Shown here piece by piece: positions 2,738 to 33,710 of a stretch of DNA of 33,710 nucleotides (within the stretch, counting starts at the first letter, position 1; every line of letters starts with the position of its first letter). The position numbers and the translations under genes were made by a program. Below the pieces are notes generated by a model that was not told the DNA's origin, searched no databases, and was given only the letters and a program-made list of their open reading frames with translations. Source of the stretch: an archaeon (GTDB lineage: Archaea; B1Sed10-29; WALL01); contig JBHOSQ010000012.1 of NCBI GenBank assembly GCA_042584585.1, forward strand, positions 1-33,710, in the 5' to 3' direction.

Positions 2738-2739
2738 TC

Positions 2740-3138: not shown

Positions 3139-3162
3139 GCTGGCTTGGCGTATGCCATATTG

Positions 3163-3178
3163 GAAAAGGTTTTTATAT
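3163..3178 (+). promoter_or_regulatory. BRE/TATA promoter of the aglB operon
   Basis: GAAAAGG-TTTTTATAT upstream of aglB, with GGGTGA RBS-like at 3210-3215. Confidence 0.6.
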
Positions 3179-3221
3179 TCACTCTAATATAGTGTAGCCG
3201 ACGCGATTTGGGTGAATAATC

Positions 3222-21301: not shown

Positions 21302-21316
21302 TCCTAAAAGGCCCCG

Positions 21317-22777
21317 TTACTTCAATGCGCTGACGTCGTACAGCAAGAAGTTTTCTGTCTCCATTAGCTTCCTGACTTTTTTGGAGTTTGCGAGTGTGGT
21401 TATCTTCTTAATTTCATCGTATGACTTCGCGGCAAGTATGTAATCAAGCTGGTACTTGGAGATGATGCTCCTGAGGGGCATAGTGAGGACGGGGTAAAAC
21501 TCCGCCAAGCCCATGCTATCCGCCGCACTCATCTGCTCAACTATGTTTTTGTCTGCGGAGTATAACGCAACACGCATGAGAGCATAAGGGAATGCGATTA
21601 CGTTCTTCCCCTTGAGCCCCTTGAGCTTGCGCATGACTTTTTTCAGCTCGCTGCCGAAGACCAGTTGCTTTGAGCGTGCCAGCTGGCGGCTTTGGCTAAT
21701 CAATACTGCCACAATGCTCACGGCGAATCCCAAGGCAAGCAACGCAGTCATCAGCAGGGAATCCAAAAAGAAATAAAAATGGAAGTATGCGGCAAGCAGC
21801 GCGATGGGGAATGCATTGAATTGTAGATATCGCTCACCCTCGCCAAAGCACATAAGTGGTTTTACTGTTGACGTGAAAAGCGCGAAAGCCCAAGTTGCTG
21901 TAACCCAAAATACGAAAAGCCAAATCAACTGAGAAAGCGCTATGCCCAAGTAAAGGACTGCTGCAAGCTGGACGGCAAGCACGACTATGAACGGGTTGTA
22001 AAAGAACAGTTTGGCCACAAGTAAGCGGATGTCCTGCTTCTTGGCGCCGTATCTAGGGCGGTTAAACCAGAAGCGAATCATTGTTAGATGGCCCTTGAAG
22101 AGGCGAAGGTAGTAACCCTTCGTCACCACTGCTGTAAACACTGCAAGAGCGGGGACAGAGAGCAGGATTAATGGATTTTGTAGGAACACCCCGAAGAGAA
22201 GGACGGTGAAATACAGGGTTTGGGTTGTCATCTTGTGTGTCAGTAAAATTAGGCTGCCAAAAGCAAAAAAGGCGGCAAAGAAAACCAAGTCCCCATAGAG
22301 CGCAAACCAAATGAGCGAAACCATCGCGAACGAAAGTAAGAATGCGCCAAGAACCCGCTCTGTGAGGGTGCCTGCCTGGGAAACGGTGAGCGGTGTGACC
22401 GCGTACACCGCTGCCGCAACGAGTGCGAGCAATGAGTTGGCCGTCAGGACTGCAGTCACGAGAAAAAGCGCTAGCACGTGTAGTACATCAATGAACGGCG
22501 AAATCAGGTACATGAACTGCTTTAGCTGCCTGTCACTCAAAAGCGACAAAAACTTGTAGAAAACTGGAGGGAAATCGAGCCTGGAACCATCTGAACGGAT
22601 AAGCATCCGCTCGTCCCGGTCAGGAAAACCGCCGTGCATCCTGAACAAGCCAGAACGGTGTAGGTGAATGAACACGTCTGAGCCAAATGGCTGTCGGCCG
22701 AGGTGTATCCTAACCCGAAGGTAAAAAGCCACGGCAGAGACAACAAAAAGCGCTGCAATAAGGGCTATAACCAACAT
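21317..22777 (-). CDS. Multi-pass membrane protein, GT-C-like (AglB/PMT-type N-terminal signature)
   Basis: First TM followed by GSDVFIH...P.RD...DFPP; about 11 TM helices; GEGERYL; small soluble C-terminal domain. Confidence 0.6.
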   Translation of the reverse strand: MLVIALIAALFVVSAVAFYLRVRIHLGRQPFGSDVFIHLHRSGLFRMHGGFPDRDERMLIRSDGSRLDFPPVFYKFLSLLSDRQLKQFMYLISPFIDVLHVLALFLVTAVLTANSLLALVAAAVYAVTPLTVSQAGTLTERVLGAFLLSFAMVSLIWFALYGDLVFFAAFFAFGSLILLTHKMTTQTLYFTVLLFGVFLQNPLILLSVPALAVFTAVVTKGYYLRLFKGHLTMIRFWFNRPRYGAKKQDIRLLVAKLFFYNPFIVVLAVQLAAVLYLGIALSQLIWLFVFWVTATWAFALFTSTVKPLMCFGEGERYLQFNAFPIALLAAYFHFYFFLDSLLMTALLALGFAVSIVAVLISQSRQLARSKQLVFGSELKKVMRKLKGLKGKNVIAFPYALMRVALYSADKNIVEQMSAADSMGLAEFYPVLTMPLRSIISKYQLDYILAAKSYDEIKKITTLANSKKVRKLMETENFLLYDVSALK

Positions 22778-22816
22778 GCTAACACACCAAAAACCAAGTT
22801 CATTACGGCAATGAGA

Positions 22817-22884
22817 CTATATAAAACAAAAGGGGGGAACCCAAAAACATGAGGTATTTTTAAATAAAAGCGTCAAATATATAG
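22817..22884. promoter_or_regulatory. Divergent promoter region with several TATA-like boxes
   Basis: CTATATAAAA, TTTTTAAATA and AAATATATAG between divergent genes; AGGTG RBS at 22901-22905. Confidence 0.5.
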
Positions 22885-22912
22885 TTCCGAACTAACTAGC
22901 AGGTGCTTTGAT

Positions 22913-24022
22913 TTGATACCCCTTGTGCGGCCTTATTTTGACGAGGCTGAGGCAAAAGCAGTGGAAGAAACACTGAAATCGGGTTGGGTTGCGGGCCAAG
23001 GGCCAAGATGCAGGGAGCTAGAAGAAAAGTTCTCGGCATACAATGGCTCGAAATTCGCGATTACGGTCAACAACTGTACTGCGGCACTTCATCTCTCCCT
23101 GCTGGCTCACGGAGTCAAAAAAGGCGACGAGGTCATCGTTGCGGACTATACCTATCCCGCCACTGGCCATGCAGTCATGTACTGTGGAGCGACGCCAGTA
23201 TTCACGGACGTTGACGCTAGGACTTACAACATTAACCCTGAAGAAATAAAGAAGAACATAACAGAAAAAACGGTTGGAATAATCCCAGTTCACACGTTCG
23301 GCCAGCCCGCGGACATGGACCCAATCATGGAAATCGCGAGGGAAAAAGGTCTGTTTGTCGTGGAGGACGCGGCATGCGCGGCTGGTGCTGAATACAAAGG
23401 CAAAAAAGCAGGCTCCATGGGGGACGTGGGCTGCTTCTCGATGCACGCACGGAAAAACATGAGCACGGGTGAGGGCGGGCTTATTACAACCGACAACGAA
23501 AAGCTTATGGGAAAAATGCGCTCACTCTCGTGCTTCGGGATAGAGTCCGCGCACAAGCGTGCGTCCGGGGGCTTCAGCGTGCCCATGTTTACTGAACTGG
23601 GATACAACTACAAACTCAGCGACATCGCCGCGTCAATAGGGATTTGGCAGCTGGCCAAGCTTGACACAATAATCACACGCAGACGGGAGCTCGTCAAGAC
23701 GTATCTTGCTGGGCTGGAAGGCATCAAGGGTATAACCCCTCCGTTCGAAAGCCAGGACGGGAAGCACATATACCAAAGCTTTGTGTGCCTCGTCGACAAA
23801 GAAGTCAACCGGAACGAAGTTATAACCAAACTTCGTGAGAATGGGGTGGAGGCACAGATAGGAACGTACTCGTGCCACATCCAGCCAGTCTATAACTCTT
23901 CATATAAGTGTCCGGTGTCCGAAGACGTATTCAACAGGGCAATTGCATTGCCGATGTACTACGGCTTGAAGGACAGTGAAGTTGATTACGTTATTGAAAA
24001 GGTAGGAACGGTGCTCGAATGA
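22913..24022 (+). CDS. DegT-family PLP aminotransferase 3 (perosamine synthase/PglE-like)
   Basis: NNCTAALH, EDAACAAGA, FSMHARKNMSTGEGG, GYNYKLSD. TTG start after AGGTG. Confidence 0.9.
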   Translation: MIPLVRPYFDEAEAKAVEETLKSGWVAGQGPRCRELEEKFSAYNGSKFAITVNNCTAALHLSLLAHGVKKGDEVIVADYTYPATGHAVMYCGATPVFTDVDARTYNINPEEIKKNITEKTVGIIPVHTFGQPADMDPIMEIAREKGLFVVEDAACAAGAEYKGKKAGSMGDVGCFSMHARKNMSTGEGGLITTDNEKLMGKMRSLSCFGIESAHKRASGGFSVPMFTELGYNYKLSDIAASIGIWQLAKLDTIITRRRELVKTYLAGLEGIKGITPPFESQDGKHIYQSFVCLVDKEVNRNEVITKLRENGVEAQIGTYSCHIQPVYNSSYKCPVSEDVFNRAIALPMYYGLKDSEVDYVIEKVGTVLE

Positions 24023-24828
24023 AAGAACTCCTCGTGCTTGGGCTTGATGGCCTGGAATACGACAAAGTAATGGAGCTTGACTTAAAGACCTTGAAGCAAG
24101 CTGAATTTGGGAAGCTGGAGGTTCCAATACACAAAGTGTCGCAGCAGCCGCTTACGCCTCAAGTCTGGTACGCATTCCTCACAGGGAAAGTGAAGGACAT
24201 TGATTTCGTGCACAAGAGTAAGTCCATTTCATTGCTCCGGTGGCTGCGAGCCAGAGTGCCAATCTCACTGGGGTTGGGTAAGGTGGTCGCAAAGCACGTT
24301 GACACGACTGGCTACCTGCCGGAGTTGAAGGAAAAAACGTTTATAGAAACCCACGGAATTGAGCAGATAAACGCACCATACTACGACGAGGACTTTGTGG
24401 AGTCCCAAAAAAATGGGGCGAAATGGCTCAACGGCGAGATGAGCGAAGATGAATTCAAAGGCACAATTGAGAGTAAGTACGCAGAGGTCAAACAAAAGAT
24501 AGCCTCAAACAAAGCCAACAAGCTGTTCGCTTACATCAAGATATTTGACACGGCACAGCACTGTTTCTACACTGACGCTGATTACATCAACAAATTGTAC
24601 CGTGATGTGGATTCTTTTGTTTCCATGGCGGCAAAAGGGTACTCCAAGTGCCTGATACTGTCTGACCACGGGCTCAAAGGCGGGGAACACACCAATTATG
24701 GTTTTTACTCGTGCAGCGAAACGACCGGGCTGAAGGAACCAAGTGTTGTTGACCTGCATTATTACGTCACGGGAGAACCAAACAAAGAGGAAATAAAAAA
24801 GAGGCTTCAGGGCCTTGGGTATATGTAG
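24019..24828 (+). CDS. Alkaline phosphatase-superfamily protein (NPP/phosphodiesterase-like)
   Basis: VLGLDG, LTP.VW..FLTG, FDTAQH, LSDHG, GEH metal-site motifs; C-terminal EEIKKRLQGLGY. Confidence 0.75.
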   Translation: MKELLVLGLDGLEYDKVMELDLKTLKQAEFGKLEVPIHKVSQQPLTPQVWYAFLTGKVKDIDFVHKSKSISLLRWLRARVPISLGLGKVVAKHVDTTGYLPELKEKTFIETHGIEQINAPYYDEDFVESQKNGAKWLNGEMSEDEFKGTIESKYAEVKQKIASNKANKLFAYIKIFDTAQHCFYTDADYINKLYRDVDSFVSMAAKGYSKCLILSDHGLKGGEHTNYGFYSCSETTGLKEPSVVDLHYYVTGEPNKEEIKKRLQGLGYM

Positions 24829-24836
24829 TGATTAAA

Positions 24837-25781
24837 ATGGCGGACGAAAATGTTTTGGTGACTGGAGGGGCAGGATTCATAGGCTCGCACTTGGTCCAGA
24901 GACTGGTGAGCGAGGGCTACAAGGTCCGGGTTCTCGATAATCTGATTAGGTCTACAACGACGAGGATACAGCCATTGATTGACGACGGAAAAGTCGAGTT
25001 CATCGACGGCGACGTGCGCTACGAGGACGCTGTGAACAAAGCGATTGATGGGATAGATTACGTGTTCCACGAGGCCGCAGTCTGCATCAACAGAAGCATT
25101 GCCCACCCTAAGGAATCAATGGACATAAACCTTAATGGCTCGCACAACGTGTTCAGGGCTGCGCTCGACAACGGCGTGAAGCGGGTCGTGTTCGCTTCAT
25201 CGGCATCGGTCTACGGCGCTCCTGAAAAGCTTCCGATGTCCGAGAGTGATGACTTGAAACCCATCACGCCGTACTGCGTCGCAAAGCTGTCGAGCGAGTA
25301 CCTGCTAAAGTTCTTTGCGCGGCAGGGCCTTGAGTACAACGTGCTGAGGTACTTCAACGTCTATGGCGTAGGGCAAAAAACAGACGCGTATTACACGTCG
25401 GTGATAATAAAGTTCATAAAGCGCCTGCTGGCGGGAGAAGCGCCCCTAATAAGCGGAGACGGCTCACAATCCATGGACTTTGTCAACGTGCTGGACATTG
25501 TGGAAGCAAACATGCTTGCGATGAAGAGCGAGACCAAAAACGAGGTCATGAACGTTGGCAGCGGCACATCCGTGTCGATAAAAGAGCTTGCAGACATAAT
25601 CACCAAAGATTTGGGCTTGGACATAGAGCCCGAGTACCTCAAGAGAGAAGTTATTGTCAAGGAGCGGCGCGCAGATGTGTCCAAAATAAAAAAGCTGCTT
25701 GGTTTCGAGCCAAAAGTCTCGATTGACGAAGGGCTCGCGATGCTTGTCGAAGATATAAAGAAAAACCCCCAGCTTTATTGA
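24837..25781 (+). CDS. NAD-dependent epimerase/dehydratase (extended SDR, GalE/WbpP-like)
   Basis: VTGGAGFIGSH, ASSASVYG, YCVAK (YxxxK), RYFNVYG. Alternative GTG start at 24828. Confidence 0.92.
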   Translation: MADENVLVTGGAGFIGSHLVQRLVSEGYKVRVLDNLIRSTTTRIQPLIDDGKVEFIDGDVRYEDAVNKAIDGIDYVFHEAAVCINRSIAHPKESMDINLNGSHNVFRAALDNGVKRVVFASSASVYGAPEKLPMSESDDLKPITPYCVAKLSSEYLLKFFARQGLEYNVLRYFNVYGVGQKTDAYYTSVIIKFIKRLLAGEAPLISGDGSQSMDFVNVLDIVEANMLAMKSETKNEVMNVGSGTSVSIKELADIITKDLGLDIEPEYLKREVIVKERRADVSKIKKLLGFEPKVSIDEGLAMLVEDIKKNPQLY

Positions 25782-26821
25782 GGGATAGAGTGGACGGAGA
25801 GATTATTGAATTCATCAGGGAGAACGTCGCTACTTTTGGGTTAGACCTCTCTGGGCTTGTTGTGTTTACAGAAGCGGCTACTGGGAGCTATGCTGTGACG
25901 CCCGTCATTGCAGCCATTGCAAATGCGCAAGTGATTGCAATCGCAAAGGACTCAAAATACGGCAGTGCCGAAGACGCCGAGAACGCTGTTCGGGCACTTG
26001 CCGAAGAGGCGGGTGTCGAGGGAATAGAATTCGTGCGAGACAAAAGCCGAATTGGCGAAGCCGACATAGTAACGAACAGCGGTGCCGTGCGACCCATCAG
26101 CCGCGAAGATATTTCACGAATGAAAGAAACTTCAGTGATTCCACTCATGTGGGAGACCTGGGAATTCCGGGAAGCCGACATGGACCTCCGCGAGTGCTGG
26201 AAAAAAGGAGTGGCGGTGCTTGGCACTGACGAAAGTGTCCCGGAAATAAACCTTTTGTCATACACCGGCGCCGTGTGCCTTGCACTATTTGAAGATGCCG
26301 GCATACACCCGAGTGGGAAGAACGTTGTTGTCTTGGGCAACACGGTGTTCACGGAAAGGATTGCAGGTGCGTTGCGTGAGGCGGGCGCAACAGTAAAAGT
26401 GTTCAAAGAGAAATCACCCATTGATCTCACAAGTGTGGACGTGGTTGTGGTGTCGGAACATTTCGACCGCGGCACCGTTGTTGGGAAAGATGGCTGGATA
26501 AAAGCGAGTGAAGTGCCAAAGGGCGCACACGTAATACAGTTTTTCGGGGAGATAAACCGCGACGAGTTGGATGCCGCGGGGATTCTGTACACCCCAAAAA
26601 AGAGCCCGGGCTACGGGCACATGGGCAAGACCATGGCTGACCTGGGGCCGAAGCCGCTAGTACTATTAAACACGGGAAGCCTAAAAGTTGGAGAAGCTGC
26701 TGCCCGGGCACGGCTCTCGGGAAAGAGTATGGCAGAAGCCGAGAAAACCGCGCTACAGGAAAGCCCCGCACAAGGATTCGGTGAAGAACAGAAAAGAAGG
26801 TATGGCTATGGAAAACAATAG
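25778..26821 (+). CDS. Hypothetical protein, probable Rossmann-like alpha/beta fold
   Basis: 347-aa ORF coupled to both neighbours. TEAATG, ADIVTNSGAVRPI, MWETWEFR..D.D and GKNVVVLG segments. No family confidently recognised. Confidence 0.7.
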   Translation: MRDRVDGEIIEFIRENVATFGLDLSGLVVFTEAATGSYAVTPVIAAIANAQVIAIAKDSKYGSAEDAENAVRALAEEAGVEGIEFVRDKSRIGEADIVTNSGAVRPISREDISRMKETSVIPLMWETWEFREADMDLRECWKKGVAVLGTDESVPEINLLSYTGAVCLALFEDAGIHPSGKNVVVLGNTVFTERIAGALREAGATVKVFKEKSPIDLTSVDVVVVSEHFDRGTVVGKDGWIKASEVPKGAHVIQFFGEINRDELDAAGILYTPKKSPGYGHMGKTMADLGPKPLVLLNTGSLKVGEAAARARLSGKSMAEAEKTALQESPAQGFGEEQKRRYGYGKQ

Positions 26822-27881
26822 AAAGATGATATTATGCGGAGCCGGTGGGGGAGGCGGAAACAACCTCATAAGAAGCATCCGGAAAAGCGGATACCCAATC
26901 ACAATTATCGGGACCAACATGGATCCATACGCGCTGGCAAAGTCAACAGCGGACAAGAACTACTTGATGCCCAGCGGGAAAGACCCATCTTACGTGGACA
27001 AAGTTAACAGGATCATAGAGCGGGAAGGCGCCGACCTAATAACACCCAACAACGACACAGAAGTTGGAGTCATCTCGGAAAACAGGGAAAAAATAAACTG
27101 CAAGACGTTCCTGCCGTCCAAGGAAGCAGTTAGGGCTTGCCAAGACAAGCTTGAGTTCTACAATCACTGCAAGAAGAACGGCATTCCTGTGGCAGAGGCA
27201 AGGCTTGTGAGCGACTTGGATGAAGTGGAAAAACACTTCGAAGAGCTACCCGGAGACAAGCTATGGTGCAAGCTCAGGCAATGCTCAGGATCGCAAGGCT
27301 CCCTCCCAGTGAACTCCCCCGAACAAGTAAAGTTTTGGGTGGAATACTGGGAAAAAATGCGGAACATCCAAAAAAGGCAATTCCTGCTCCTGGAGTACCT
27401 GCCAGGCCGAGACTTTGCGTTCCAAAGTGTCTGGAAGGACGGGGAACTCGTCATCGCAAAGTGTTGCGAAAGAAAAAGCTATTTCTTCGCACGCAACATG
27501 CCCAGCAACACCTCGTCAACGCCCCAGCTCGCAAAGATGACCAAAGACCAGAGGGTATACGACATTTGCGTCAAAGCAATCAAGAGCCTCGACCCCAAAC
27601 CACATGGAAACTTTTGCTGTGACCTGAAAGAAAACATCAACGGCGACCCCTGCATGACAGAAATCAACATAGGGCGGTTCTTCATGATAACCAACATCTT
27701 CGACCTGACGGGCAAATACAACACTGCGGAAATGCACCTGCGCAGCGCGTTCGGCGACCCCTTGCCGGAAATGGACCCTTATGGCGACATCGACGAAAGC
27801 GTGTACATGATACGTGACCTTGACACCGAGCCAACCATAGTGACCAAAGAACAACTGGAAAACAGCTACGAAAAAATATGA
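26808..27881 (+). CDS. ATP-grasp fold ligase (CarB-like C-terminal, glycan-cluster type)
   Basis: GAGGGGG, P.ND.EV, CQDKL, K.R..SGSQG, EYLPG, D.KE...G.P..TEIN.GRF. Alternative start at 26802. Confidence 0.85.
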   Translation: MENNRKMILCGAGGGGGNNLIRSIRKSGYPITIIGTNMDPYALAKSTADKNYLMPSGKDPSYVDKVNRIIEREGADLITPNNDTEVGVISENREKINCKTFLPSKEAVRACQDKLEFYNHCKKNGIPVAEARLVSDLDEVEKHFEELPGDKLWCKLRQCSGSQGSLPVNSPEQVKFWVEYWEKMRNIQKRQFLLLEYLPGRDFAFQSVWKDGELVIAKCCERKSYFFARNMPSNTSSTPQLAKMTKDQRVYDICVKAIKSLDPKPHGNFCCDLKENINGDPCMTEINIGRFFMITNIFDLTGKYNTAEMHLRSAFGDPLPEMDPYGDIDESVYMIRDLDTEPTIVTKEQLENSYEKI

Positions 27882-27954
27882 TTACTAACCCGTTTAGATA
27901 ATTGCTTGGCTGTTTTGCTTAAAGTATTCTCTTTATGTAGAACAATCATACCAC

Positions 27955-27974
27955 AAAAAGGAAGTCTATATAAA
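27955..27974 (+). promoter_or_regulatory. BRE/TATA promoter of the com operon
   Basis: AAAAAGGAAGTC-TATATAAA upstream of comA; GGGAGTGA RBS-like sequence before ATG 28020. Confidence 0.6.
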
Positions 27975-28019
27975 GACGGGGATTGACAAAATTAGCCAAT
28001 GCCCCTGGGAGTGAGCTAA

Positions 28020-28802
28020 ATGCCAGTTTCATTTGGAAGTATATCCTTGCCAACAAGGACTGTGAAGCCTAGGGACAGCGGCATAACAATGGTGCTGGAC
28101 TCCGGCCTCGGGCTTAATGCCACAAAAGACCTGGTCGAAACAGCTGGCGACTACATCGACATCGTTAAGCTGGGATGGGGAACGTCCCGGCTGTTCAGTG
28201 ACGAGCTGCTAAAAAAGAAAGTTGAACTGATGAAGAGCCACGGCATCAAAGTTTGTCCAGGAGGCAGCTTTGTCGAAATAGCGGCGGCACAAAACAAAGT
28301 CGATGAGTTTTTCGGGAACGCCAAAGCCATTGGATTCGATTGCGTCGAGGTCTCCAACGGCGTGCACCCAATGAGCGAAGAAGAAAAGATTGGAATCATA
28401 AAGAAGGCTGTTGCACACGGGTTCTCAGTTACGTCAGAAGTCGGGAAGAAAAACCCAGAAGAAGACGCACTGCTCTCGGCTGACGACCGCGTCCGGCTCG
28501 CCGAGCAAGAGCTTGAGGCAGGCGCATGGAAAGTTATTATGGAGTCACGGGCCAGCGGAAAACTCGGCATGTTCGACAGCTCCGGCAAAGTCAAGGAAGA
28601 AATGGCGAAGGAACTTTTCAGCCGCCTCGACATCAGCAAAATCATTTTCGAAGCCCCAGCCAAAGCGCAGCAGCTATGGCTCATCGAGCGATTGGGCAAC
28701 GACGTCAACCTCGGGAACATTCGGCCCGACGACGCCATCCCTCTAGAGACACTGCGCCTCGGGCTCAGGGGCGATACACTCAAAAAATACCATTTGGAAT
28801 GA
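28020..28802 (+). CDS. comA: Phosphosulfolactate synthase
   Basis: KPR..GITMVLD.G, YIDIVKLGWGTS, PGG, VEVSNG, SEVGKK, ESR.SG, IFEAP.K.QQ, VNLGNI, LETLRLGLRGDT. Confidence 0.95.
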   Translation: MPVSFGSISLPTRTVKPRDSGITMVLDSGLGLNATKDLVETAGDYIDIVKLGWGTSRLFSDELLKKKVELMKSHGIKVCPGGSFVEIAAAQNKVDEFFGNAKAIGFDCVEVSNGVHPMSEEEKIGIIKKAVAHGFSVTSEVGKKNPEEDALLSADDRVRLAEQELEAGAWKVIMESRASGKLGMFDSSGKVKEEMAKELFSRLDISKIIFEAPAKAQQLWLIERLGNDVNLGNIRPDDAIPLETLRLGLRGDTLKKYHLE

Positions 28803-29470
28803 TATTAATGGAAGTGCGGCTCGAACACTGTGAGAATGGCGTCAGAAGCGCCGCCCAGCGGGGCGACGTCATCGTTCTTGTCGATGCCATCCGGGCAAGC
28901 TCGACCATTACCGCAGCATTGGCCAATGGGTTCGAGCGCGTGCTGCCGGTGGCATCGATTGAAGAATGTGCAGCCTACAACGGCAAGCCAGGATACGTGA
29001 CTGCGGGCGAGAGGGACGGCAAAAAGCCCAGTAATCTGGACCGCGGCAACTCACCCACCGGATTCCCTGAAGGGAAAACCCTTGTCATCAGCACGACGAA
29101 CGGAACACGCTGCCTCAAGGCAGCCGGTAACTCACAAGTGCTCATCGGCGCGCTCGTCAACTGCTCCGCAACCGCTGCCGCCGCCAAGCAAATGGCAAAG
29201 AAAATGGGTACAGGCATAAGCCTCGTGACCGCCGGATACCGCGGAGCCCCAGCCGAAGAAGACGATTACACTGCAGTGCAGATAATGAAGGCCATCAACG
29301 GCGAAGAACCTGACGCAAAAGATGAGTCGGTGTTCAAGAGCTCTGGCACGGCTCATAGGCTCGCGGGATGGGGCTATGCTGAGGACGTGCTGTTCTGCAG
29401 CCAAAGGGACATTTACAACATCGTACCGATATACAAAAACAACGAGATTGTGGTGCTTGAAATTGATTGA
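28799..29470 (+). CDS. comB: 2-phosphosulfolactate phosphatase
   Basis: VDAIRASSTI, AGERDG, GNSP, STTNGT, IGALVN, EDD. Start at 28799 or 28808. Confidence 0.93.
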   Translation: MILMEVRLEHCENGVRSAAQRGDVIVLVDAIRASSTITAALANGFERVLPVASIEECAAYNGKPGYVTAGERDGKKPSNLDRGNSPTGFPEGKTLVISTTNGTRCLKAAGNSQVLIGALVNCSATAAAAKQMAKKMGTGISLVTAGYRGAPAEEDDYTAVQIMKAINGEEPDAKDESVFKSSGTAHRLAGWGYAEDVLFCSQRDIYNIVPIYKNNEIVVLEID

Positions 29471-30488
29471 AGCAAATGTGTTGAAGGGATTCGTTTCGGA
29501 TGTGCTCGTTGCACATGGCGTGGCGGAAGACTATGCGTCTGTTACCGCAGACGTTCTTGTGGAGGCCGACCTTCGCGGCCATAACTCACATGGCGTGTCC
29601 CGACTGGGCAGGATACTCACCGGAATAAAAGCGGGCACCCACAACCCATCGGGAAGGGCAGAAGTCGAGCAGGACAAAGGCGCAACTGCATTGCTCACCG
29701 GCAACCAGGGCCTTGGCCACCCAGTGGCAAAAGAGGCGATGAAACTCGCAATCAAAAAAGCCAAGGAGTATGGCATTGGGAGTGTTGGGATACACAACAC
29801 CACCCACTTTGGCATGGCGGGGTATTACAGCGAACTCGCGGCAGAGCAAGGCATGATTGGCATAACTGTGTGCAATACAGAGCCGGCGATAGCTGCGTTC
29901 GGCGGGAATAAAAAAATAGTCGGCACCAATCCGATTGCGTTTGCCGCCCCCTACACGGAAGGCCGGCCGGTGCTTGTGGACATGGCCACGTCAGCCATCG
30001 CACGCGGCAAGGCACTTGAAGCCTCACGGAAGGGGGAAAAGCTGCCGCCAATGGTTGCGATGGACAGCGAGGGCAACCCAACACAAGACCCGAAAAAAGC
30101 GCTGGATGGATCGCTGATAGCCATAGGAAGTGCCTTCGCGTACAAGGGATTTGGACTGGCAATGGCTTTTGACCTGCTCAGTGGCGCACTTGTCCGTGGC
30201 CACTGCGGGACTGACGTCCATGGCAGCGCGACAACAACAGAAAGGTCTACAGTGGGGGACTTCATGATAGCGATAAACATTGCGAACTTCACAGACATCA
30301 GCGAATTCAAACAAAAGACGAGTAAGCTCGTGGACGAGGTAAAAGAAAGTGGTGAGGGCGTGCTCTATCCTGGGGAAAAAGAACAGGTGACAAGAGACGA
30401 ACGGCTGAAAAACGGCATACCTCTCGACGAAGGCTTGATAAGCGAGCTGCGAAAAATGGGGCGTGAGGTAAATGTCAATCTCGAGTGA
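29457..30488 (+). CDS. comC: L-sulfolactate dehydrogenase (Ldh_2 family)
   Basis: EADLRGHNSHG, HFGMAGYY, GTNPIAFAAP, DMATS, YKGFGL, YPGE. Probable TTG start at 29457 or 29463; lies between comB and comD. Confidence 0.88.
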   Translation: MKLIEANVLKGFVSDVLVAHGVAEDYASVTADVLVEADLRGHNSHGVSRLGRILTGIKAGTHNPSGRAEVEQDKGATALLTGNQGLGHPVAKEAMKLAIKKAKEYGIGSVGIHNTTHFGMAGYYSELAAEQGMIGITVCNTEPAIAAFGGNKKIVGTNPIAFAAPYTEGRPVLVDMATSAIARGKALEASRKGEKLPPMVAMDSEGNPTQDPKKALDGSLIAIGSAFAYKGFGLAMAFDLLSGALVRGHCGTDVHGSATTTERSTVGDFMIAINIANFTDISEFKQKTSKLVDEVKESGEGVLYPGEKEQVTRDERLKNGIPLDEGLISELRKMGREVNVNLE

Positions 30489-30972
30489 TGTTTTAGGCGA
30501 GATGAAAGATGCCGGCATAGACTTTGTCACTTCAGTGCCCTGCATCCTTTTGGCGGAATTGCTTGAGCTATTGGACAAAGAGCCGAGCATGACCCATCTG
30601 CCAGTCACGCGCGAAGAAGAGGGGATGGGCGTGTGCGCTGGCGCTTACCTGGCTGGGAAAACCCCTGCCATGCTAATGCAGAACTCTGGGTTGGGCAACT
30701 CAATAAACGCCCTCGCGTCCCTCGTGCTCTACTACGATATCCCCTTAGTGCTCATCTTTAGTCATCGGGGCACCGAAGGAGAGAAGATCAATGCTCAAGT
30801 CCCCATGGGAGACGCAACACCCAAACTGCTTGACGCCGTCGGGATTGAATACATCACCATTGAATCTGCGGAAAACATGGGGAAAATACGCGACGCGATA
30901 AAAAAAGCAAATTCCGAGAGCAAGCCAGTGGCTGTGCTGCTCCCGTTCTCGTTCTGGGGGGAACGGCAATGA
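30472..30972 (+). CDS. comD: Sulfopyruvate decarboxylase alpha subunit
   Basis: SVPC, TREEEGMGVCAGAYLAG, MQNSGLGNSINAL.SL, SHRG..GE...AQVPMG. Confidence 0.93.
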   Translation: MSISSDVLGEMKDAGIDFVTSVPCILLAELLELLDKEPSMTHLPVTREEEGMGVCAGAYLAGKTPAMLMQNSGLGNSINALASLVLYYDIPLVLIFSHRGTEGEKINAQVPMGDATPKLLDAVGIEYITIESAENMGKIRDAIKKANSESKPVAVLLPFSFWGERQ

Positions 30973-31523
30973 AGCGCATTGACGCAATCACGCAGATTGC
31001 CGAGGCACTGGGTGAAGAATGGGTTGTGGCGAACATTGGGTTCCCGTCAAGGGAGCTTTATTCCGTGAAGGACAGGGCGAAGAACTTTTACATGATGGGC
31101 TCGATGGGCCTGGCTTCGTCGATTGGGCTTGGTGTGGCGCTGTGCTGCAAAGAGAACGTGTGGGCAATTGACGGGGACGGGAGCGTGCTCATGAACCTTG
31201 GCACGTTGTCGACCATCTCTAACTACGGGCCTGAAAACTATACTCTTATAATACTGGACGACTCTTCCTATGGGTCAACGGGCTGCCAGCCCACACACAC
31301 CAGCGGGAAAACAGACTTGTCCAAGATGGCAGAAGGCGCGGGAATCCGAAGCGTGCACAACATTGGCGCCGGCGAACTCAAGGCAACACTGGAGTCGCTG
31401 CGCGGCAAGCCCGGGCCACACGTCGTTGTCGCAAGCTTCGAGCCAGGCAACGCAAAAGTCCCGATTATTCCAATGGAGCCCAGTGAAATCAAAAATAGAT
31501 TTATGGAGGCAATAAAATGCTGA
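30969..31523 (+). CDS. comE: Sulfopyruvate decarboxylase beta subunit
   Basis: NIGFPSREL, NFYMMGSMGLASSIGLG, DGDGSVLMN TPP motif, YGSTG.QPT. Confidence 0.93.
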   Translation: MKRIDAITQIAEALGEEWVVANIGFPSRELYSVKDRAKNFYMMGSMGLASSIGLGVALCCKENVWAIDGDGSVLMNLGTLSTISNYGPENYTLIILDDSSYGSTGCQPTHTSGKTDLSKMAEGAGIRSVHNIGAGELKATLESLRGKPGPHVVVASFEPGNAKVPIIPMEPSEIKNRFMEAIKC

Positions 31524-32914
31524 TTGATGGAAAGACCACGAAAGCAAAGGAGCAGGTTCCTGTGATAAACCCTTACGATGGGAACGAAGTTGGGATGGTG
31601 TGTGCCTGCACAAAAGGGGATGTGAAGCGCGCGGTCGATGCCGCGAAAAAGGCTAGGGGCGTGGCAAAAAAAATGACACCGTACCATCGGTACGAGCTGT
31701 TGTTTTCTGTTTACGAGCAAGTCAAAGAGAACAAGGAACAACTCGCGAGGCTCATCACTTCGGAATGCGGAAAAACCATAAAAGAAAGCCGTAGTGAAGT
31801 CGGGCGATCAATGGACACACTGCTCTTCTCGGCAGAAGAAGCCAAAAGAATCACCGGTGAAACCATGTCCGCGGATGTGACGCCGGTGGAGACCGGGAAA
31901 AGAGGGTTCACAATCCTGCAGCCAATCGGAGTCGTGGCCGCGATTTGCCCGTTCAACTTTCCGTTGAACCTGGTGCTGCACAAAGTAGCCCCCGCGATAG
32001 CATCGGGCAACACTTTGGTCGTGAAGCCGGCCAGCCAGACGCCACTGACTGCTTACAAACTCGGCGAAATGCTAACCGATGCCGGAGCACCCCCCGGCCT
32101 AATAAACATTGTCAGCGGGAGGGGTAGCGAAGTCGGTGCCGCTCTCGTGAAAAGCGATGTTAACATGATTACGTTTACGGGGAGTGTCGAGGTCGGCCAG
32201 AAAATTGCTGCAAACGCCGGAATGAAAAAGATGTCGCTGGAACTCGGCGGCAACGGCCCACTCATAATCATGGACGACGCCGACCTGGACAAAGCCATTC
32301 CCGATGCACTGGACGGGGCGTTCGGCACCGCAGGGCAAAGGTGCACAGCCGTGAAAAGAATTCTTTTACACAACAAAATTGCGGATGAATTCATCCCGCG
32401 CTTTGTGGAAGAGGCAAAGAAGCTCAGGGTGGGAGACCCCATGGACGACAAGACCGATGTCGGTCCATTGATTAACGAGAGTGCAGCCATTGACGTGGAA
32501 GAACGAGTTGAAGAAGCAGTCAATGACGGTGCCGAAGTGCTTCTTGGCAGGAAGAGAGAAAAGGCACATTACTGGCCAACCGTTCTGGACAATGTCCCGC
32601 GCACCACGCGCATGGTACAGACCGAAACGTTCGGCCCGACTGCACCCATAATCCGGTTCGACAGCCTCCAAGAGGCAGTGGAAATCGCGAACGAGACCCC
32701 GTACGGGCTTCAGGCAGGCATATTCAGCGAGGCATTTAAGAACATAAAATACGCTGTCAGCAACATCGAGTCTGGCGCAGTGGTCATCAACGGCCCGCCA
32801 GGGTTCAGAATCGATCCGTTCCCGTTCGGTGGCGTGAAGTACTCGGGCATGGGCCGCGAGGGCATCAAGTACGCAATACGCGAAATGACAGAAATAAAGA
32901 CCGTGTTCTTCTAG
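31517..32914 (+). CDS. NAD(P)-dependent aldehyde dehydrogenase; putative sulfoacetaldehyde dehydrogenase (PhnY/lactaldehyde DH-like)
   Basis: PFNFP, KPA, FTGS, LELGGN, GQRCTAVKR, ETFGP, PFGGVKYSG.GREG; overlaps the comE stop. The substrate is inferred from context. Confidence 0.88.
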   Translation: MLIDGKTTKAKEQVPVINPYDGNEVGMVCACTKGDVKRAVDAAKKARGVAKKMTPYHRYELLFSVYEQVKENKEQLARLITSECGKTIKESRSEVGRSMDTLLFSAEEAKRITGETMSADVTPVETGKRGFTILQPIGVVAAICPFNFPLNLVLHKVAPAIASGNTLVVKPASQTPLTAYKLGEMLTDAGAPPGLINIVSGRGSEVGAALVKSDVNMITFTGSVEVGQKIAANAGMKKMSLELGGNGPLIIMDDADLDKAIPDALDGAFGTAGQRCTAVKRILLHNKIADEFIPRFVEEAKKLRVGDPMDDKTDVGPLINESAAIDVEERVEEAVNDGAEVLLGRKREKAHYWPTVLDNVPRTTRMVQTETFGPTAPIIRFDSLQEAVEIANETPYGLQAGIFSEAFKNIKYAVSNIESGAVVINGPPGFRIDPFPFGGVKYSGMGREGIKYAIREMTEIKTVFF

Positions 32915-33429
32915 TGCATCCGCGCCTTGAGCGAGTTCACAGCCTCGAAGAGGACGTCCTGCGTGAATGACATGGACACCACCGGAATGTCCGATACGCG
33001 CTGGACCGTTGTTGCTGCTACAGGACCACAGATTAGTCCAAGAGCCCCATCCTTCTCTGCCTTAACGGCCGCCACTATCTCATCCTCAATACTTGTCGCG
33101 GGATAGTCCTTGATTATTACTTCTGTTCCACTGAAAGAAAAAGTGCGGTTCTTCAGGCGGTCAAGGACAGCACGACCAGTGATAAGCGCGACGAATGGCT
33201 GGGAAACACCCTCCATATCCCTCACCGTCTTGAAGATTTGCCGAAGCGTTGAAATGCGAAAGTCCAGCCTCTCGCCAGACACAATTTTGTAAAGAGTGTT
33301 CTGGGGGATGCCTGACTTCCTCGCGAAATCAATCACGCTCATGTTCTTGCTTTCCAGGAATACCTTGAAGGCTATGACGAACCCTTGCTCAGAACCCATT
33401 GCCGCTAGAAGCAGCTTTTTGTCTTCCAT
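32911..33429 (-). CDS. XRE-type HTH transcriptional regulator with C-terminal ligand-binding-like domain (archaeal type)
   Basis: MSVIDFARKSGIPQNTLYKIVSG.R.DFRISTLRQI HTH; C-terminal AAVKAEKDGA..LICGP...DIPV. Start at 33429 or 33438. Confidence 0.85.
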   Translation of the reverse strand: MEDKKLLLAAMGSEQGFVIAFKVFLESKNMSVIDFARKSGIPQNTLYKIVSGERLDFRISTLRQIFKTVRDMEGVSQPFVALITGRAVLDRLKNRTFSFSGTEVIIKDYPATSIEDEIVAAVKAEKDGALGLICGPVAATTVQRVSDIPVVSMSFTQDVLFEAVNSLKARMH

Positions 33430-33483
33430 ATTATACACCGAGGATAATTATTGCTTTAATCCTATTTAAATATGTCCTCTTTG

Positions 33484-33518: not shown

Positions 33519-33553
33519 TGGAATTTTCCTAATTATTGGGGCAAGTGAGGAAG

Positions 33554-33710
33554 ATGGTAACCAAACGAGTACTAGTGATTGGGCTGGACGGCACTCCGCC
33601 GGAACTGCTTTTCGGAATGCGCGAACAGCTGCCGAACATTGACGCACTAATGCGGAAGAGCTTATGGGCACCTATGCGAACGTGCATCCCGCCGGTTACC
33701 AACCCCGCGT
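33554..33710 (+). CDS. Alkaline phosphatase-superfamily (type I phosphodiesterase/NPP) protein, 3'-truncated by the window edge
   Basis: Not in the ORF track. Translated by hand as MVTKRVLVIGLDGTPPELLFGMREQLPNIDALMRKSLWAPMRTCIPPVTNPA, with typical IGLDG, LPN..L and PP.T.PA motifs; GAGG RBS upstream. Confidence 0.8.
   Translation, partial: MVTKRVLVIGLDGTPPELLFGMREQLPNIDALMRKSLWAPMRTCIPPVTNPA

What the first reader, a model, noticed from the sequence alone, without database searches (positions are those of the whole stretch)
26808..32914. Coenzyme M genes comABCDE + aldehyde dehydrogenase + ATP-grasp ligase inside a pilin/N-glycosylation locus: candidate sulfonate (sulfoacetyl) glycan-modification system
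Seen: a complete, tightly coupled comA-comB-comC-comD-comE operon ending in an ALDH. It lies directly downstream of an ATP-grasp ligase and sugar-pathway genes, and is bracketed by AlkP-family genes, all contiguous with aglB and three pilins. No CoM-forming step, mcr or alkene-metabolism gene is present in the window. Established: ComABCDE convert PEP + sulfite via phosphosulfolactate, sulfolactate and sulfopyruvate to sulfoacetaldehyde; ATP-grasp enzymes join carboxylates to amines; phosphonoglycan loci use an analogous route (PepM, Ppd, then aldehyde tailoring). Inference: the ALDH oxidises sulfoacetaldehyde to sulfoacetate, and the ATP-grasp enzyme amide-links it to an amino sugar made by one of the three DegT enzymes. 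The product would be an N-sulfoacetyl sugar on pilin/S-layer N-glycans. I know of no described pathway of this kind.
Basis: partly seen in the sequence, partly recalled or inferred. Interest (0 to 1): 0.88.

Follow-up and report, generated by a model that had tools for sequence, protein, structure and literature searches.

The report
Sulfoacetate pathway inside an archaeal glycan island
A tiny non-methanogenic archaeon carries the first five coenzyme M genes plus an aldehyde dehydrogenase inside its surface-sugar gene island, so it probably makes sulfoacetate to decorate its surface glycans rather than making the methanogen cofactor.

Summary
comA, comB, comC, comD, comE and an aldehyde dehydrogenase (ALDH) form one overlapping operon at 28020-32914. 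An ATP-grasp gene lies just upstream, and the operon sits in a locus with aglB, pilins and amino-sugar genes.

The genome is about 1.0 Mb and 84% complete, a DPANN-type archaeon. I found no McrA, McrB, ComF-type or MMP16 coenzyme M synthase.

A same-genus genome has comA and comB, with a different ATP-grasp, inside the syntenic aglB island. A third has PepM-Ppd-ALDH, the phosphonate analogue. In both com-bearing genomes the island probably ends in CysD-CysN.

The ALDH clusters with PhnY-like enzymes, not with methanogen lactaldehyde dehydrogenases.

Best reading, confidence 0.45: PEP plus sulfite gives sulfoacetate, which is attached to a surface glycan. The ATP-grasp step is circumstantial. 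It lies in a separate transcription unit, and its family is widespread without com genes.

A ComA-linked N-sulfoacetyl group is already known in misaugamycin-B. I call this a new variant of a known kind.

The parts
3222..5633 (+). aglB oligosaccharyltransferase. Conserved left boundary of the glycan island, with three pilin-like genes at 1754-3138 upstream.
   Evidence: Pfam STT3 45.9 bits and AglB_core-like. 60% identical to the G002 copy.
22913..24022 (+). DegT3, a sugar aminotransferase. First gene of the five-gene unit upstream of the com operon.
   Evidence: NCBIfam best hit PseC 290.9 bits, below its cut-off. An exact TATA-like box lies at 22817.
24019..24828 (+). AlkP1, a small AlkP/NPP-like protein.
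   Evidence: Pfam Phosphodiest 22.2 bits, just below the cut-off of 23. 24% identical (E 7e-8) to the CysDN-linked AlkPb on contig C2. Homologues lie in G002 (27%) and directly after CysN in G017.
24828..25781 (+). SDR-type sugar epimerase/dehydratase.
   Evidence: NCBIfam GalE 169.3 and LegB 160.3 bits, both below their cut-offs.
25790..26821 (+). Uncharacterised NAD(P)-dependent dehydrogenase. Two-domain fold like alanine dehydrogenase or 2-hydroxyacid dehydrogenase.
   Evidence: Atlas structure search gives AlaDH / N5-(carboxyethyl)ornithine synthase-like folds at TM 0.59-0.65. 970 representatives have E <= 1e-3. A profile search of the PDB matches only the Rossmann domain. In P0465 this family is fused to a WbmS-like deacetylase.
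26808..27881 (+). PylC-like ATP-grasp carboxylate-amine ligase. Candidate, unproven, sulfoacetate:amino-sugar ligase.
   Evidence: Pfam PylC-like_N 45.3 bits. Atlas structure rows are ATP-grasp and carboxylate-amine ligase, TM 0.83-0.94. A 45% identical relative lies next to a WbmS-like deacetylase in a Desulfovibrio sugar locus.
27966..27974 (+). TATA-like box CTATATAAA, 45 nt upstream of the comA ATG. Candidate promoter of the com-ALDH operon.
   Evidence: Sequence read. The motif occurs 7 times with up to 1 mismatch, against 1.83 expected; 0 of 100 shuffles reach 7. The exact copies lie at 22817 and 27966.
28020..28802 (+). comA, phosphosulfolactate synthase (PEP + sulfite).
   Evidence: TIGR03849 299.5 bits, above 280. 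Pfam ComA 307 bits.
28799..29470 (+). comB, 2-phosphosulfolactate phosphatase.
   Evidence: Pfam 2-ph_phosp 163.9 bits. TIGR00298 136.4 bits, below 175.05.
29463..30488 (+). comC, sulfolactate dehydrogenase. The start is uncertain: TTG at 29448, 29457 or 29463, or GTG at 29478.
   Evidence: NF040650 386.3 bits, below 500 but the best hit by 155 bits. Pfam Ldh_2 393.4 bits. A 35% identical paralogue lies on contig C13.
30472..30972 (+). comD, sulfopyruvate decarboxylase alpha subunit.
   Evidence: TIGR03845 214.6 bits, above 147.95.
30969..31523 (+). comE, sulfopyruvate decarboxylase beta subunit.
   Evidence: TIGR03846 236.6 bits, above 221.5.
31517..32914 (+). ALDH, inferred sulfoacetaldehyde dehydrogenase giving sulfoacetate. 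Overlaps comE by 7 nt.
   Evidence: Pfam Aldedh 534.8 bits. It reaches no NCBIfam equivalog cut-off. Pocket signature is R-F-R-C-R, against R-H-R-C-R in PhnY and R-Y-V-C-R in 85 of 108 more distant listed homologues (P0013-P0120). It falls in a clade sister to the PhnY-like sequences. 48% identical to the PepM-Ppd-linked ALDH of G001.
32911..33438 (-). XRE-type HTH protein with a C-terminal domain of unknown function, convergent with the ALDH. Possible regulator.
   Evidence: Pfam HTH_26 26.8 bits and HTH_3 23.7 bits.
33536..33709 (+). N-terminal 58 aa of an AlkP/NPP-like gene cut by the contig end. It probably continues at the start of contig C2, where RHH, AlkPb, CysD and CysN follow.
   Evidence: ORF found. 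It aligns to residues 3-52 of the 406-aa G002 Phosphodiest protein (E 5.6e-7). The 5'-open ORF at the start of C2 aligns to residues 209-385 of the same protein (E 1.9e-13).

Best explanation
The six overlapping genes comA-comB-comC-comD-comE-ALDH are a biosynthetic operon in a small, non-methanogenic DPANN-type archaeon.

Proposed route: PEP + sulfite gives phosphosulfolactate, then sulfolactate, sulfopyruvate and sulfoacetaldehyde. These are the established ComABCDE steps. The pathway does not go on to coenzyme M. The ALDH oxidises sulfoacetaldehyde to sulfoacetate (inferred).

The operon lies inside the variable surface-glycan island, between aglB with the pilins and a probable CysD-CysN sulfate-activation module. 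So the sulfonated acid is most likely built into an N-glycan or other surface glycan as an anionic acyl group (inferred from context). The most likely chemistry is an amide to an amino sugar, made by the neighbouring PylC-like ATP-grasp ligase. This last step is the weakest.

The same-genus genome G002 would do the same with sulfolactate. It has comA-comB only, plus a different ATP-grasp.

My odds for the steps: sulfoacetate is the product, about 0.7. A surface glycan is the destination, about 0.5. This ATP-grasp is the ligase, about 0.35.
For: Gene identities:
- ComA, ComD and ComE are above their NCBIfam equivalog cut-offs. ComB and ComC are the best hits of their families.
- The six genes overlap and have their own TATA-like box.

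No use for coenzyme M found:
- No McrA in G000.
- No McrB and no HcyBio/ComF family in G000, G001 or G002, while the methanogen control G032 is positive.
- No MMP16 above its cut-off in 0 of 6 genomes of the family.
- No CofD in G000, so an F420 lactaldehyde role for the ALDH is unlikely.

The ALDH:
- G000 has a separate generic ALDH on contig C3 at 38% identity.
- The G001 cluster PepM, Ppd alpha, Ppd beta, ALDH has the same decarboxylase-then-ALDH layout, and its ALDH is 48% identical. That layout is the accepted route to phosphonoacetate (PMC8942020, passages read).
- The pocket residues and the tree place the ALDH with PhnY-like enzymes.

The glycan link:
- G002 has comA (64%) and comB (39%) between aglH and the Lrp-GFO-ATP-grasp-HAD-DegT1 genes of the syntenic island.
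- The island ends in AlkPa-RHH-AlkPb-CysD-CysN in G002, and by inference in G000.
- Among the 31 genomes of the phylum, ComA is above its cut-off only in G000 and G002.
- CysD is found in G000, G002, G017 and weakly in G008.
- ATP-grasp relatives with E <= 1e-10 are found in G000, G002 and weakly in G012.
- The two ATP-grasps are only 26-29% identical, so the two pairings are not one inherited pair.

Other support:
- The ATP-grasp family sits in amino-sugar N-acyl remodelling contexts, next to a WbmS-like deacetylase. The neighbouring dehydrogenase family occurs fused to the same kind of deacetylase.
- N-sulfoacetylation with a ComA gene in the cluster exists in misaugamycin-B.
- Enolase is present, so PEP can be supplied.
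Against: - No experiment and no expression data exist. No sequencing run was listed.
- The ALDH reaches no equivalog cut-off. Its best NCBIfam hit is the methanogen lactaldehyde dehydrogenase model (575.7 bits), ahead of PhnY (477.4) and SafD (474.5). It lacks the His159 equivalent of PhnY.
- The ATP-grasp is in another transcription unit.
- The ATP-grasp family is widespread. Its one relative with readable context has no com genes within 10 kb.
- Comparing longest-contig lengths across the three homologue lists showed no contig shared between the ComA list and the ATP-grasp list. The only length shared between the ComA and ALDH lists (3462 bp, P0245 and P0032) comes from different sources, so I treat it as chance. 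One contig length (58,673 bp) is shared between an ALDH homologue and an ATP-grasp homologue.
- The 11 ALDH orthologues at 60-68% identity could not be placed in context.
- No source of sulfite was found. There is no CysH-type reductase apart from CysD itself, and no APS kinase.
- G000, G001 and G002 are one genus, so co-occurrence counts are not independent.
- The join between C12 and C2 is inferred from synteny. The two contig ends do not overlap.
Confidence: 0.45

Rival explanations
1. Sulfoacetate (sulfolactate in G002) is made as a free small molecule, not as a glycan substituent. It could be a sulfite-detoxification product, exported for example by a TauE/SafE-type carrier. It could also be an anionic compatible solute. 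On this reading the position next to glycan genes reflects a shared variable island only.
For: The operon has its own promoter-like box and needs no neighbour to make sulfoacetate. G000 has two TauE-family genes. No ligase is shown to use sulfoacetate. Sulfolactate accumulates as a free solute in Bacillus spores (recalled, not checked here).
Against: In two species the com genes lie inside the aglB-to-CysDN glycan island, at different positions. That is hard to explain without a functional link. TauE genes are near-universal: 13 of 14 control genomes have them, and here they lie on other contigs. Spending one PEP per sulfite is costly for a 1-Mb genome.
Confidence: 0.2
2. A sulfonate is attached to the glycan by other chemistry. 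For example, sulfoacetaldehyde is transaminated to taurine. The ATP-grasp then activates a uronic-acid carboxylate and forms a taurine amide, as Cj1438C does with serinol phosphate. On this reading the ALDH has a side role.
For: An ATP-grasp that amidates the C6 carboxylate of glucuronate, followed by a phosphatase, is established in the C. jejuni capsule (PMC11800379, passages read). The window encodes a nucleotide-sugar 6-dehydrogenase at 12250-13509, three DegT aminotransferases and a HAD phosphatase.
Against: The ALDH overlaps comE by 7 nt and would compete for sulfoacetaldehyde. No taurine-type aminotransferase is in the operon. G002 has only comA-comB, whose product is a carboxylic acid and not an amine.
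Confidence: 0.1
3. The genes serve coenzyme M after all. The symbiont makes sulfoacetaldehyde or coenzyme M for itself or for a methanogenic host, using an unknown last step.
For: ComABCDE is the canonical coenzyme M route. The nearest ComA relatives outside the phylum include ANME and Methanosarcinales sequences at about 52% identity. DPANN archaea are often host-dependent (general knowledge). G000 is only 84% complete.
Against: No McrA, McrB, HcyBio/ComF or MMP16 was found in G000. G001 and G002 likewise lack McrB, HcyBio and MMP16 (McrA was searched in G000 only). The coupled ALDH removes the aldehyde that coenzyme M synthesis needs. G002 keeps only comA-comB.
Confidence: 0.07
4. The operon is catabolic. 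Imported sulfolactate is oxidised by ComC, decarboxylated by ComDE and oxidised by the ALDH to gain reducing equivalents, and sulfoacetate is excreted.
For: ComDE-type decarboxylases take part in bacterial sulfolactate degradation (recalled, not checked here). The ComC and ALDH steps each yield NAD(P)H.
Against: ComA and ComB are biosynthetic (PEP + sulfite) and open the operon. No sulfonate importer, Xsc or sulfite-handling gene lies in the window. G002 has only ComA-ComB.
Confidence: 0.05
5. Assembly or binning artefact: the contig, or its com part, belongs to a co-occurring methanogen.
For: The genome is a 32-contig metagenome bin, and the window is one whole contig.
Against: Contig C16 of G002, from an independent genome, carries comA-comB together with the same coiled-coil, pilin, aglB, HAD and DegT1 genes at 49-80% identity. 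The contig GC of 0.539 fits the genome range of 0.50-0.58. Contamination is 0.16%.
Confidence: 0.03

Closest known systems
Archaeal coenzyme M biosynthesis, ComA-ComB-ComC-ComDE then a coenzyme M synthase (ComF / MMP16), in class I methanogens
   Same: The five enzymes that take PEP + sulfite to sulfoacetaldehyde. ComA, ComD and ComE pass the curated equivalog cut-offs.
   Different: No terminal coenzyme M synthase and no Mcr were found. The genes are fused into one operon with an ALDH and lie in a glycan island. In the methanogen control G032, comA, comE and the ALDH homologue are hundreds of kb apart.
PepM-Ppd-PhnY-like ALDH route to phosphonoacetate, and phosphonoglycan logic
   Same: Same architecture: a PEP-derived 3-carbon acid with a C-X bond, a split TPP decarboxylase, then an ALDH giving an anionic acetate analogue. 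A same-genus genome carries exactly this, with a 48% identical ALDH. It is an accepted branch of phosphonate biosynthesis (PMC8942020).
   Different: The bond is C-S instead of C-P. ComABC replace PepM. The ALDH lacks the His159 equivalent of PhnY.
2-Sulfoacetyl N-acylation of misaugamycin-B (Streptomyces; misNOPQ: ACP, acyl-CoA ligase, phosphosulfolactate synthase, glyoxalase)
   Same: A ComA-dependent supply of a sulfoacetyl group that ends as an amide on an amine. Sulfite feeding raises the yield of the product (PMC9136965, passages read).
   Different: It is a bacterial peptide antibiotic and not an archaeal glycan. The route from phosphosulfolactate differs (glyoxalase, ACP and CoA ligase, with no ComBCDE or ALDH). 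Activation is by a CoA ligase and ACP rather than an ATP-grasp.
SafD sulfoacetaldehyde dehydrogenase of bacterial taurine-to-sulfoacetate metabolism
   Same: The proposed reaction is the same: sulfoacetaldehyde + NAD(P)+ gives sulfoacetate.
   Different: The NCBIfam SafD model scores 474.5 bits against a cut-off of 700, so the ALDH is not a SafD orthologue. The context here is biosynthetic, not taurine catabolism.
Sulfonated or sulfated archaeal N-glycans (sulfoquinovose in Sulfolobus and Thermoplasma, sulfated sugars in haloarchaea)
   Different: Those use UDP-sulfoquinovose synthase or O-sulfation. Here the sulfonate would enter as a C2 or C3 sulfo-acid made by cofactor-pathway enzymes.
Cj1438C / Cj1435 amidation of glucuronate in the C. 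jejuni capsule
   Same: An ATP-grasp ligase forms an amide on a glycan building block (PMC11800379).
   Different: There the sugar supplies the carboxylate and the fold is TupA-like. Here the ligase is PylC-like, and the direction of ligation is unknown.

Membership tests
Coenzyme M biosynthesis pathway (archaeal, PEP-dependent) | ComA phosphosulfolactate synthase | tested here: met
   TIGR03849 299.5 bits, above 280. Pfam ComA 307 bits.
Coenzyme M biosynthesis pathway (archaeal, PEP-dependent) | ComB phosphatase and ComC sulfolactate dehydrogenase | tested here: inconclusive
   The Pfam families are met (163.9 and 393.4 bits). Both are below the NCBIfam equivalog cut-offs (136.4 vs 175.05; 386.3 vs 500), though each is the best hit.
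Coenzyme M biosynthesis pathway (archaeal, PEP-dependent) | ComD/ComE sulfopyruvate decarboxylase | tested here: met
   214.6 bits above 147.95, and 236.6 bits above 221.5.
Coenzyme M biosynthesis pathway (archaeal, PEP-dependent) | Terminal step from sulfoacetaldehyde to coenzyme M (ComF/HcyBio-type or MMP16) | tested here: not met
   PF01837: no match in G000, G001 or G002, while G032 is positive. TIGR03287: 0 of 6 genomes of the family above the cut-off of 363.95, best 38.5 bits. G000 is 84% complete.
Coenzyme M biosynthesis pathway (archaeal, PEP-dependent) | A coenzyme M-using enzyme (Mcr) in the genome | tested here: not met
   PF02249: no match in G000. PF02241: no match in G000, G001 or G002, while G032 is positive. 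Other coenzyme M users (Mtr, alkene enzymes) were not searched.
SafD sulfoacetaldehyde dehydrogenase (NF047626) | Score at or above the curated cut-off | tested here: not met
   474.5 bits against 700.
PhnY phosphonoacetaldehyde dehydrogenase (TIGR03250) | Score at or above the cut-off, and the four basic pocket residues | tested here: not met
   477.4 bits against 635.65. 3 of 4 residues are kept: R97, R275 and R431, with F148 in place of His159. The role of these residues is recalled from the PhnY structure paper, which was not held.
Methanogen lactaldehyde dehydrogenase (NF040648, MJ1411 type) | Score at or above the cut-off, clade membership, and an F420 pathway in the genome | tested here: not met
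   575.7 bits against 650. The signature is R-F-R-C-R, against R-Y-V-C-R in 85 of 108 more distant listed homologues (P0013-P0120). It falls in a separate clade, support 0.93. No CofD in G000.
ATP-grasp carboxylate-amine ligases (PylC-like) | PylC-like N-domain and ATP-grasp fold | tested here: met
   PF21360 45.3 bits, above 27. Atlas structure hits at TM 0.83-0.94 to ATP-grasp clusters. My own AF2 model was too poor to use.
ATP-grasp carboxylate-amine ligases (PylC-like) | Substrates (which acid, which amine) | not testable with these tools
   Context only.

The most novel reading that the evidence does not exclude
One genus of DPANN archaea has recruited the front half of the methanogen coenzyme M pathway, and its phosphonate twin, as a toolkit. 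The toolkit makes small, permanently anionic acyl groups: sulfolactyl in G002, sulfoacetyl in G000 and perhaps phosphonoacetyl in G001. Dedicated ATP-grasp ligases graft them onto the amino sugars of AglB-dependent pilin or S-layer glycans.

The island also carries a conserved module of CysD-CysN with three AlkP/NPP-like proteins and no APS kinase. That module may be an unrecognised APS-dependent sulfuryl-transfer system acting on the same glycans.
Probability: 0.25. Interest if true: 0.85.

Novelty: new variant of a known kind. Interest (0 to 1): 0.68.

Why it matters
If true, this is a second biological use for the ComABCDE enzymes in Archaea, outside methane and alkane metabolism. It would also be a new route to C-sulfonated glycans, alongside UDP-sulfoquinovose.

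It carries a practical warning. com genes in metagenome bins are often read as markers of coenzyme M use or methanogenesis, and here they are not.

It offers a natural series within one genus: comAB, comABCDE plus ALDH, and PepM-Ppd-ALDH. That series could show how surface-glycan chemistry diversifies in ultra-small, probably host-attached archaea.

It also points to testable enzymes: a sulfoacetaldehyde dehydrogenase unrelated to SafD, and ATP-grasp ligases for sulfo-acids.

Tried and rejected
**Comparative searches**
- I scanned metagenome contigs with the ALDH. It gave 15 loci, all with ALDH at 43% identity or less. At E <= 1e-8 none of the 15 had a com or ATP-grasp hit. This was uninformative.
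- I scanned genome contigs with the ATP-grasp. It gave one locus (a Desulfovibrio MAG) with no com genes.
- I searched 401 related genomes with the ALDH. 30 matched at E <= 1e-120, and none but G000 exceeded 50% identity. So the 60-68% orthologues are not among them.
- I fetched five DPANN ALDH loci. None had com or Ppd neighbours, but three of these contigs are only 2.6-5.8 kb long.
- I matched contigs by their longest-contig length across. This is a weak proxy. Only the top 120 of each list are shown, so the lack of matches is inconclusive.

**Structure and alignment**
- Both single-sequence AF2 models were poor (mean pLDDT 49 and 37) and I did not use them. No fold search was run. I should have used alignments.
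- phmmer of the dehydrogenase against the PDB gave nothing meaningful.

**Readings I rejected**
- The Arg before the catalytic Cys is not a discriminator on its own. The generic ALDHs of G002 and G004 also have GQRCTA. Only the combined signature is informative.
- The Ldh_2 hit in G002 is not ComC. It lies in an unrelated context. G000 also has a second Ldh_2 gene outside the cluster, on contig C13 (35% identical to the window ComC), so this family occurs here apart from the com genes. I did not compare the G002 and C13 copies directly.
- The weak APS-kinase hit in G000 reads as a thymidylate-kinase-like P-loop protein, by my reading of its motif.

**Blanks that are no evidence**
- Sequencing runs: none was listed and there was no RNA holder.
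- Supplementary files of papers were not consulted. Figure S54 of PMC9136965, the proposed sulfoacetyl route, could bear on the comparison.

**Literature searches for prior description**
- 'phosphosulfolactate synthase' + 'DPANN': 0 papers.
- 'sulfoacetate' + 'glycan': 8 papers, none on a sulfoacetyl glycan by title or abstract.
- sulfoacetyl / sulfolactyl / sulfoacetamido / sulfoacetamide: 26 papers. Only misaugamycin is relevant, and 'sulfolactyl' had 0 occurrences among the 24 listed.
- 'phosphosulfolactate synthase' + 'glycosyltransferase': 5 papers, none relevant by title.
- Diapherotrites / Iainarchaeota with coenzyme M terms: none of the 15 listed papers links a phylum term to a sulfonate-pathway term, apart from one with a single passing mention that I did not open.

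Full report
**1. What is in the window**

The window is one whole contig (C12, 33,710 bp) of a 32-contig genome. The genome is 1.02 Mb, 84.4% complete and 0.16% contaminated.

Family searches give a continuous surface-glycan locus on the + strand:
- a coiled-coil protein;
- three pilin-like genes (1754-3138);
- aglB (3222-5633);
- an AglH-type Glycos_transf_4 gene;
- a UDP-GlcNAc 3-dehydrogenase-like GFO gene;
- HAD, DegT1, a polysaccharide deacetylase, a FemAB-family gene and Alg14/Alg13;
- a nucleotide-sugar 6-dehydrogenase and a PglF-like dehydratase;
- a GT4 gene, an E1 alpha/beta TPP pair and DegT2;
- a flippase and a membrane protein on the - strand.

Two further blocks follow. The first is DegT3, AlkP1, an SDR, an uncharacterised dehydrogenase and the ATP-grasp (22913-27881); all five overlap or abut. 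Then comes a 138-bp gap. The second block is comA-comB-comC-comD-comE-ALDH (28020-32914), whose genes overlap by 4-17 nt.

ComA, ComD and ComE exceed the curated NCBIfam equivalog cut-offs. ComB and ComC are below theirs but are clearly the best hits. AlkP1 lies at 24019-24828, and a 58-aa N-terminal fragment lies at the very end of the contig.

**2. Transcription units**

The gap before comA holds CTATATAAA, 45 nt upstream of the ATG. The identical 9-mer lies before the DegT3 block. One-mismatch copies lie before the GT4 block and the HTH gene. In all there are 7 matches against 1.83 expected, and 0 of 100 shuffles reach 7.

I read these as archaeal TATA boxes. This is an inference; the promoter scan tool covers only bacterial sigma-70 sites. 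If so, the com-ALDH operon is its own unit, and the ATP-grasp belongs to the neighbouring one.

**3. The host does not look like a coenzyme M user**

- McrA: not found in G000.
- McrB and the HcyBio/ComF family: not found in G000, G001 or G002. The methanogen-like control G032 has both.
- MMP16, recently reported as the main coenzyme M synthase of Methanosarcina (PMC11844431, search listing and start of abstract only): 0 of 6 genomes of the family above the cut-off. Only ferredoxin-segment hits of 38.5 bits or less appear.
- CofD is absent from G000. That argues against an F420 lactaldehyde role for the ALDH.

The caveat is 84% completeness. The relatives are small genomes of 0.3-1.3 Mb. The phylum holds only 31 species genomes. 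A 64% identical ComA is named by its source as coming from a 'Candidatus Diapherotrites archaeon'. I therefore treat the host as a DPANN-type archaeon.

**4. The ALDH**

Its best solved relatives are MJ1411 lactaldehyde dehydrogenase (3pqa, 395 bits) and PhnY phosphonoacetaldehyde dehydrogenase (4i3t, 353 bits). It reaches no NCBIfam cut-off: lactaldehyde model 575.7 against 650, PhnY 477.4 against 635.65, SafD 474.5 against 700.

I recalled four basic pocket residues of PhnY: Arg108, His159, Arg290 and Arg447. The paper was not held. All four numbers do land on basic residues of the 4i3t chain with a constant offset of 3.

The signatures at Arg108, His159, Arg290, the catalytic Cys and Arg447 are as follows:
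- Window ALDH: R-F-R-C-R.
- PepM-linked ALDH of G001: R-H-R-C-R, the same as PhnY.
- 85 of the 108 more distant listed homologues (P0013-P0120), the named ones being mostly Methanobacteriales 'lactaldehyde dehydrogenases': R-Y-V-C-R.
- All 12 sequences P0001-P0012: R-[F/Y]-R-C-R.

In a FastTree of 121 sequences the window ALDH lies in a 19-member clade that is all R-[F/Y]-R-C-R (support 0.93). That clade sits inside a 26-member clade (support 0.86) that adds R-H-R-C-R sequences. G000 also has a separate generic ALDH on contig C3 (38% identical).

Together with the 7-nt overlap with comE, this supports an anionic C2 aldehyde as the substrate. It does not prove it.

**5. Relatives give the strongest evidence**

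*G002 (same genus).* It has comA (64% identical) and comB (39%) on the contig that also carries the same coiled-coil, pilin, aglB, HAD (78%) and DegT1 (80%) genes. There the pair lies between aglH and an Lrp-GFO-ATP-grasp-HAD-DegT1 operon. No ComE was found in G002. Its only Ldh_2 hit lies in an unrelated context. So G002 should stop at sulfolactate.

*G001 (same genus).* It has neither ComA nor CysD, nor an ATP-grasp of this kind. It does carry PepM, Ppd alpha, Ppd beta, an ALDH (48% identical to the window ALDH) and a P-loop protein. This is the layout read in the literature as the phosphonoacetate branch (PMC8942020).

*The phylum (31 genomes).*
- ComA above its cut-off: G000 and G002 only.
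- ATP-grasp relatives with E <= 1e-10: G000, G002 (29% identical) and G012 (25%).

Because the two ATP-grasps are not orthologues and the com genes sit at different places, the two pairings look independent. Even so, all of this rests on one genus.

**6. The island probably continues into sulfate activation**

Contig C2 of G000 begins with:
- a 5'-open AlkP-like ORF;
- a small RHH-like gene;
- AlkPb;
- CysD (363.6 bits, above 195);
- CysN (TIGR02034 341.8 bits, above 336.1);
- a 5-formyl-THF cyclo-ligase.

Contig C16 of G002 is colinear: AlkPa (406 aa), an SDR, RHH (72%), AlkPb (81%), CysD (85%), CysN (83%) and the same cyclo-ligase.

The terminal fragment of the window aligns to the N-terminus of the G002 AlkPa. 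The first ORF of C2 aligns to its C-terminus. So C12 very likely joins C2, although the contig ends do not overlap.

G017 has no ComA but has the same CysD-CysN plus AlkP-like plus RHH module next to sugar genes. I found no APS kinase and no CysH-type reductase other than CysD. The source of sulfite for ComA is therefore unexplained.

**7. The ATP-grasp and its neighbour**

The ATP-grasp has 960 homologues with E <= 1e-20. The top identities are 43-55%, from many bacterial and archaeal phyla.

The one relative with readable context is in Desulfovibrio (45% identical). It sits in a WbpB/DegT/AsnB-type sugar locus directly after a WbmS-like deacetylase, with no com genes.

The gene upstream of the window ATP-grasp belongs to a large unnamed dehydrogenase family: 970 representatives, with an AlaDH / 2-hydroxyacid-dehydrogenase-like fold. 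One member (P0465) is fused to a domain that is 41% identical (E 1e-53) to that same Desulfovibrio deacetylase.

So the block at 22913-27881 looks like an amino-sugar N-acyl remodelling module. It also shows that the module works elsewhere without sulfonates, so the acid it uses here is not established.

**8. Comparison with the known, and verdict**

The enzymes are known. The combination (ComABCDE, then an ALDH, with no coenzyme M synthase) is what is unusual, together with its place in an AglB glycan island of a DPANN archaeon.

An N-sulfoacetyl group with a ComA gene in its cluster is described for misaugamycin-B. The chemistry as such is therefore not unprecedented. I found no report of a sulfoacetyl or sulfolactyl glycan, or of com genes in this phylum.

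I rate this a new variant of a known kind. Confidence is moderate (0.45) in the full reading, higher (about 0.7) that sulfoacetate is the product, and lower (about 0.35) that this ATP-grasp is the ligase.

Noticed in passing
window 33536-33709; G000:C2:1-4166 (L062); G002:C16 (L016 9339-15506); G017:C26 (L069 9879-14479): A conserved module of CysD-CysN, two or three small AlkP/NPP-like paralogues and an RHH-like protein sits next to sugar genes in three genomes of the phylum. One of them (G017) has no ComA. No APS kinase or CysH-type reductase was found. The AlkP-like proteins may use APS directly, by sulfuryl transfer or hydrolysis. That idea is untested.
   Followed up: partly
window 24784-24828 (C-terminus of AlkP1); G000:C2 1096-1344 and 2117-2920: AlkP1, the RHH-like protein and CysD all end in a similar motif of the type RL-x-x-LGY-[MI]. 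The last 15 residues of AlkP1 and of the RHH-like protein are 67% identical. It may be a shared docking peptide. Seen in the translations.
   Followed up: no
G001:C29 (L013) 889-5165: A same-genus genome carries PepM, split Ppd, an ALDH and a 358-aa P-loop protein with weak CbiA/DUF1611-like hits. Nucleotide and NAD genes flank it, not glycan genes. This is a probable phosphonoacetate pathway whose product has an unknown fate.
   Followed up: partly
window end and G000:C2 start: Contigs C12 and C2 are probably adjacent. The break falls inside one AlkP-like gene, and about 150 codons are missing. The inference rests on colinearity with G002:C16. The contig ends do not overlap.
   Followed up: partly
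window 16799-18747: A pyruvate-dehydrogenase-E1-like TPP alpha/beta pair lies in one operon with a GT4 glycosyltransferase and DegT2. This suggests a two-carbon (acyl or branched-chain) modification of a sugar.
   Followed up: no
window 9623-11382: A polysaccharide deacetylase is followed by a FemAB-family gene just after DegT1. This suggests de-N-acetylation, then aminoacyl-tRNA-dependent aminoacylation of an amino sugar.
   Followed up: no
window 25790-26821; P0362-P0510: The dehydrogenase upstream of the ATP-grasp belongs to a large family: 970 representatives at E <= 1e-3, 396 at 1e-30. It has no Pfam model or solved structure. Invariant residues are T31, E32, R105, P106, W128, E129 and E152. 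Fusions exist to a WbmS-like deacetylase (P0465, tested) and to what looks by eye like a GNAT domain (P0395, not tested).
   Followed up: partly
window 20000-28000: GC drops to 0.49-0.52 across the flippase-to-ATP-grasp stretch, against about 0.55 for the genome. The com-ALDH operon is at 0.53-0.55. The variable part of the island may be of mixed origin.
   Followed up: no
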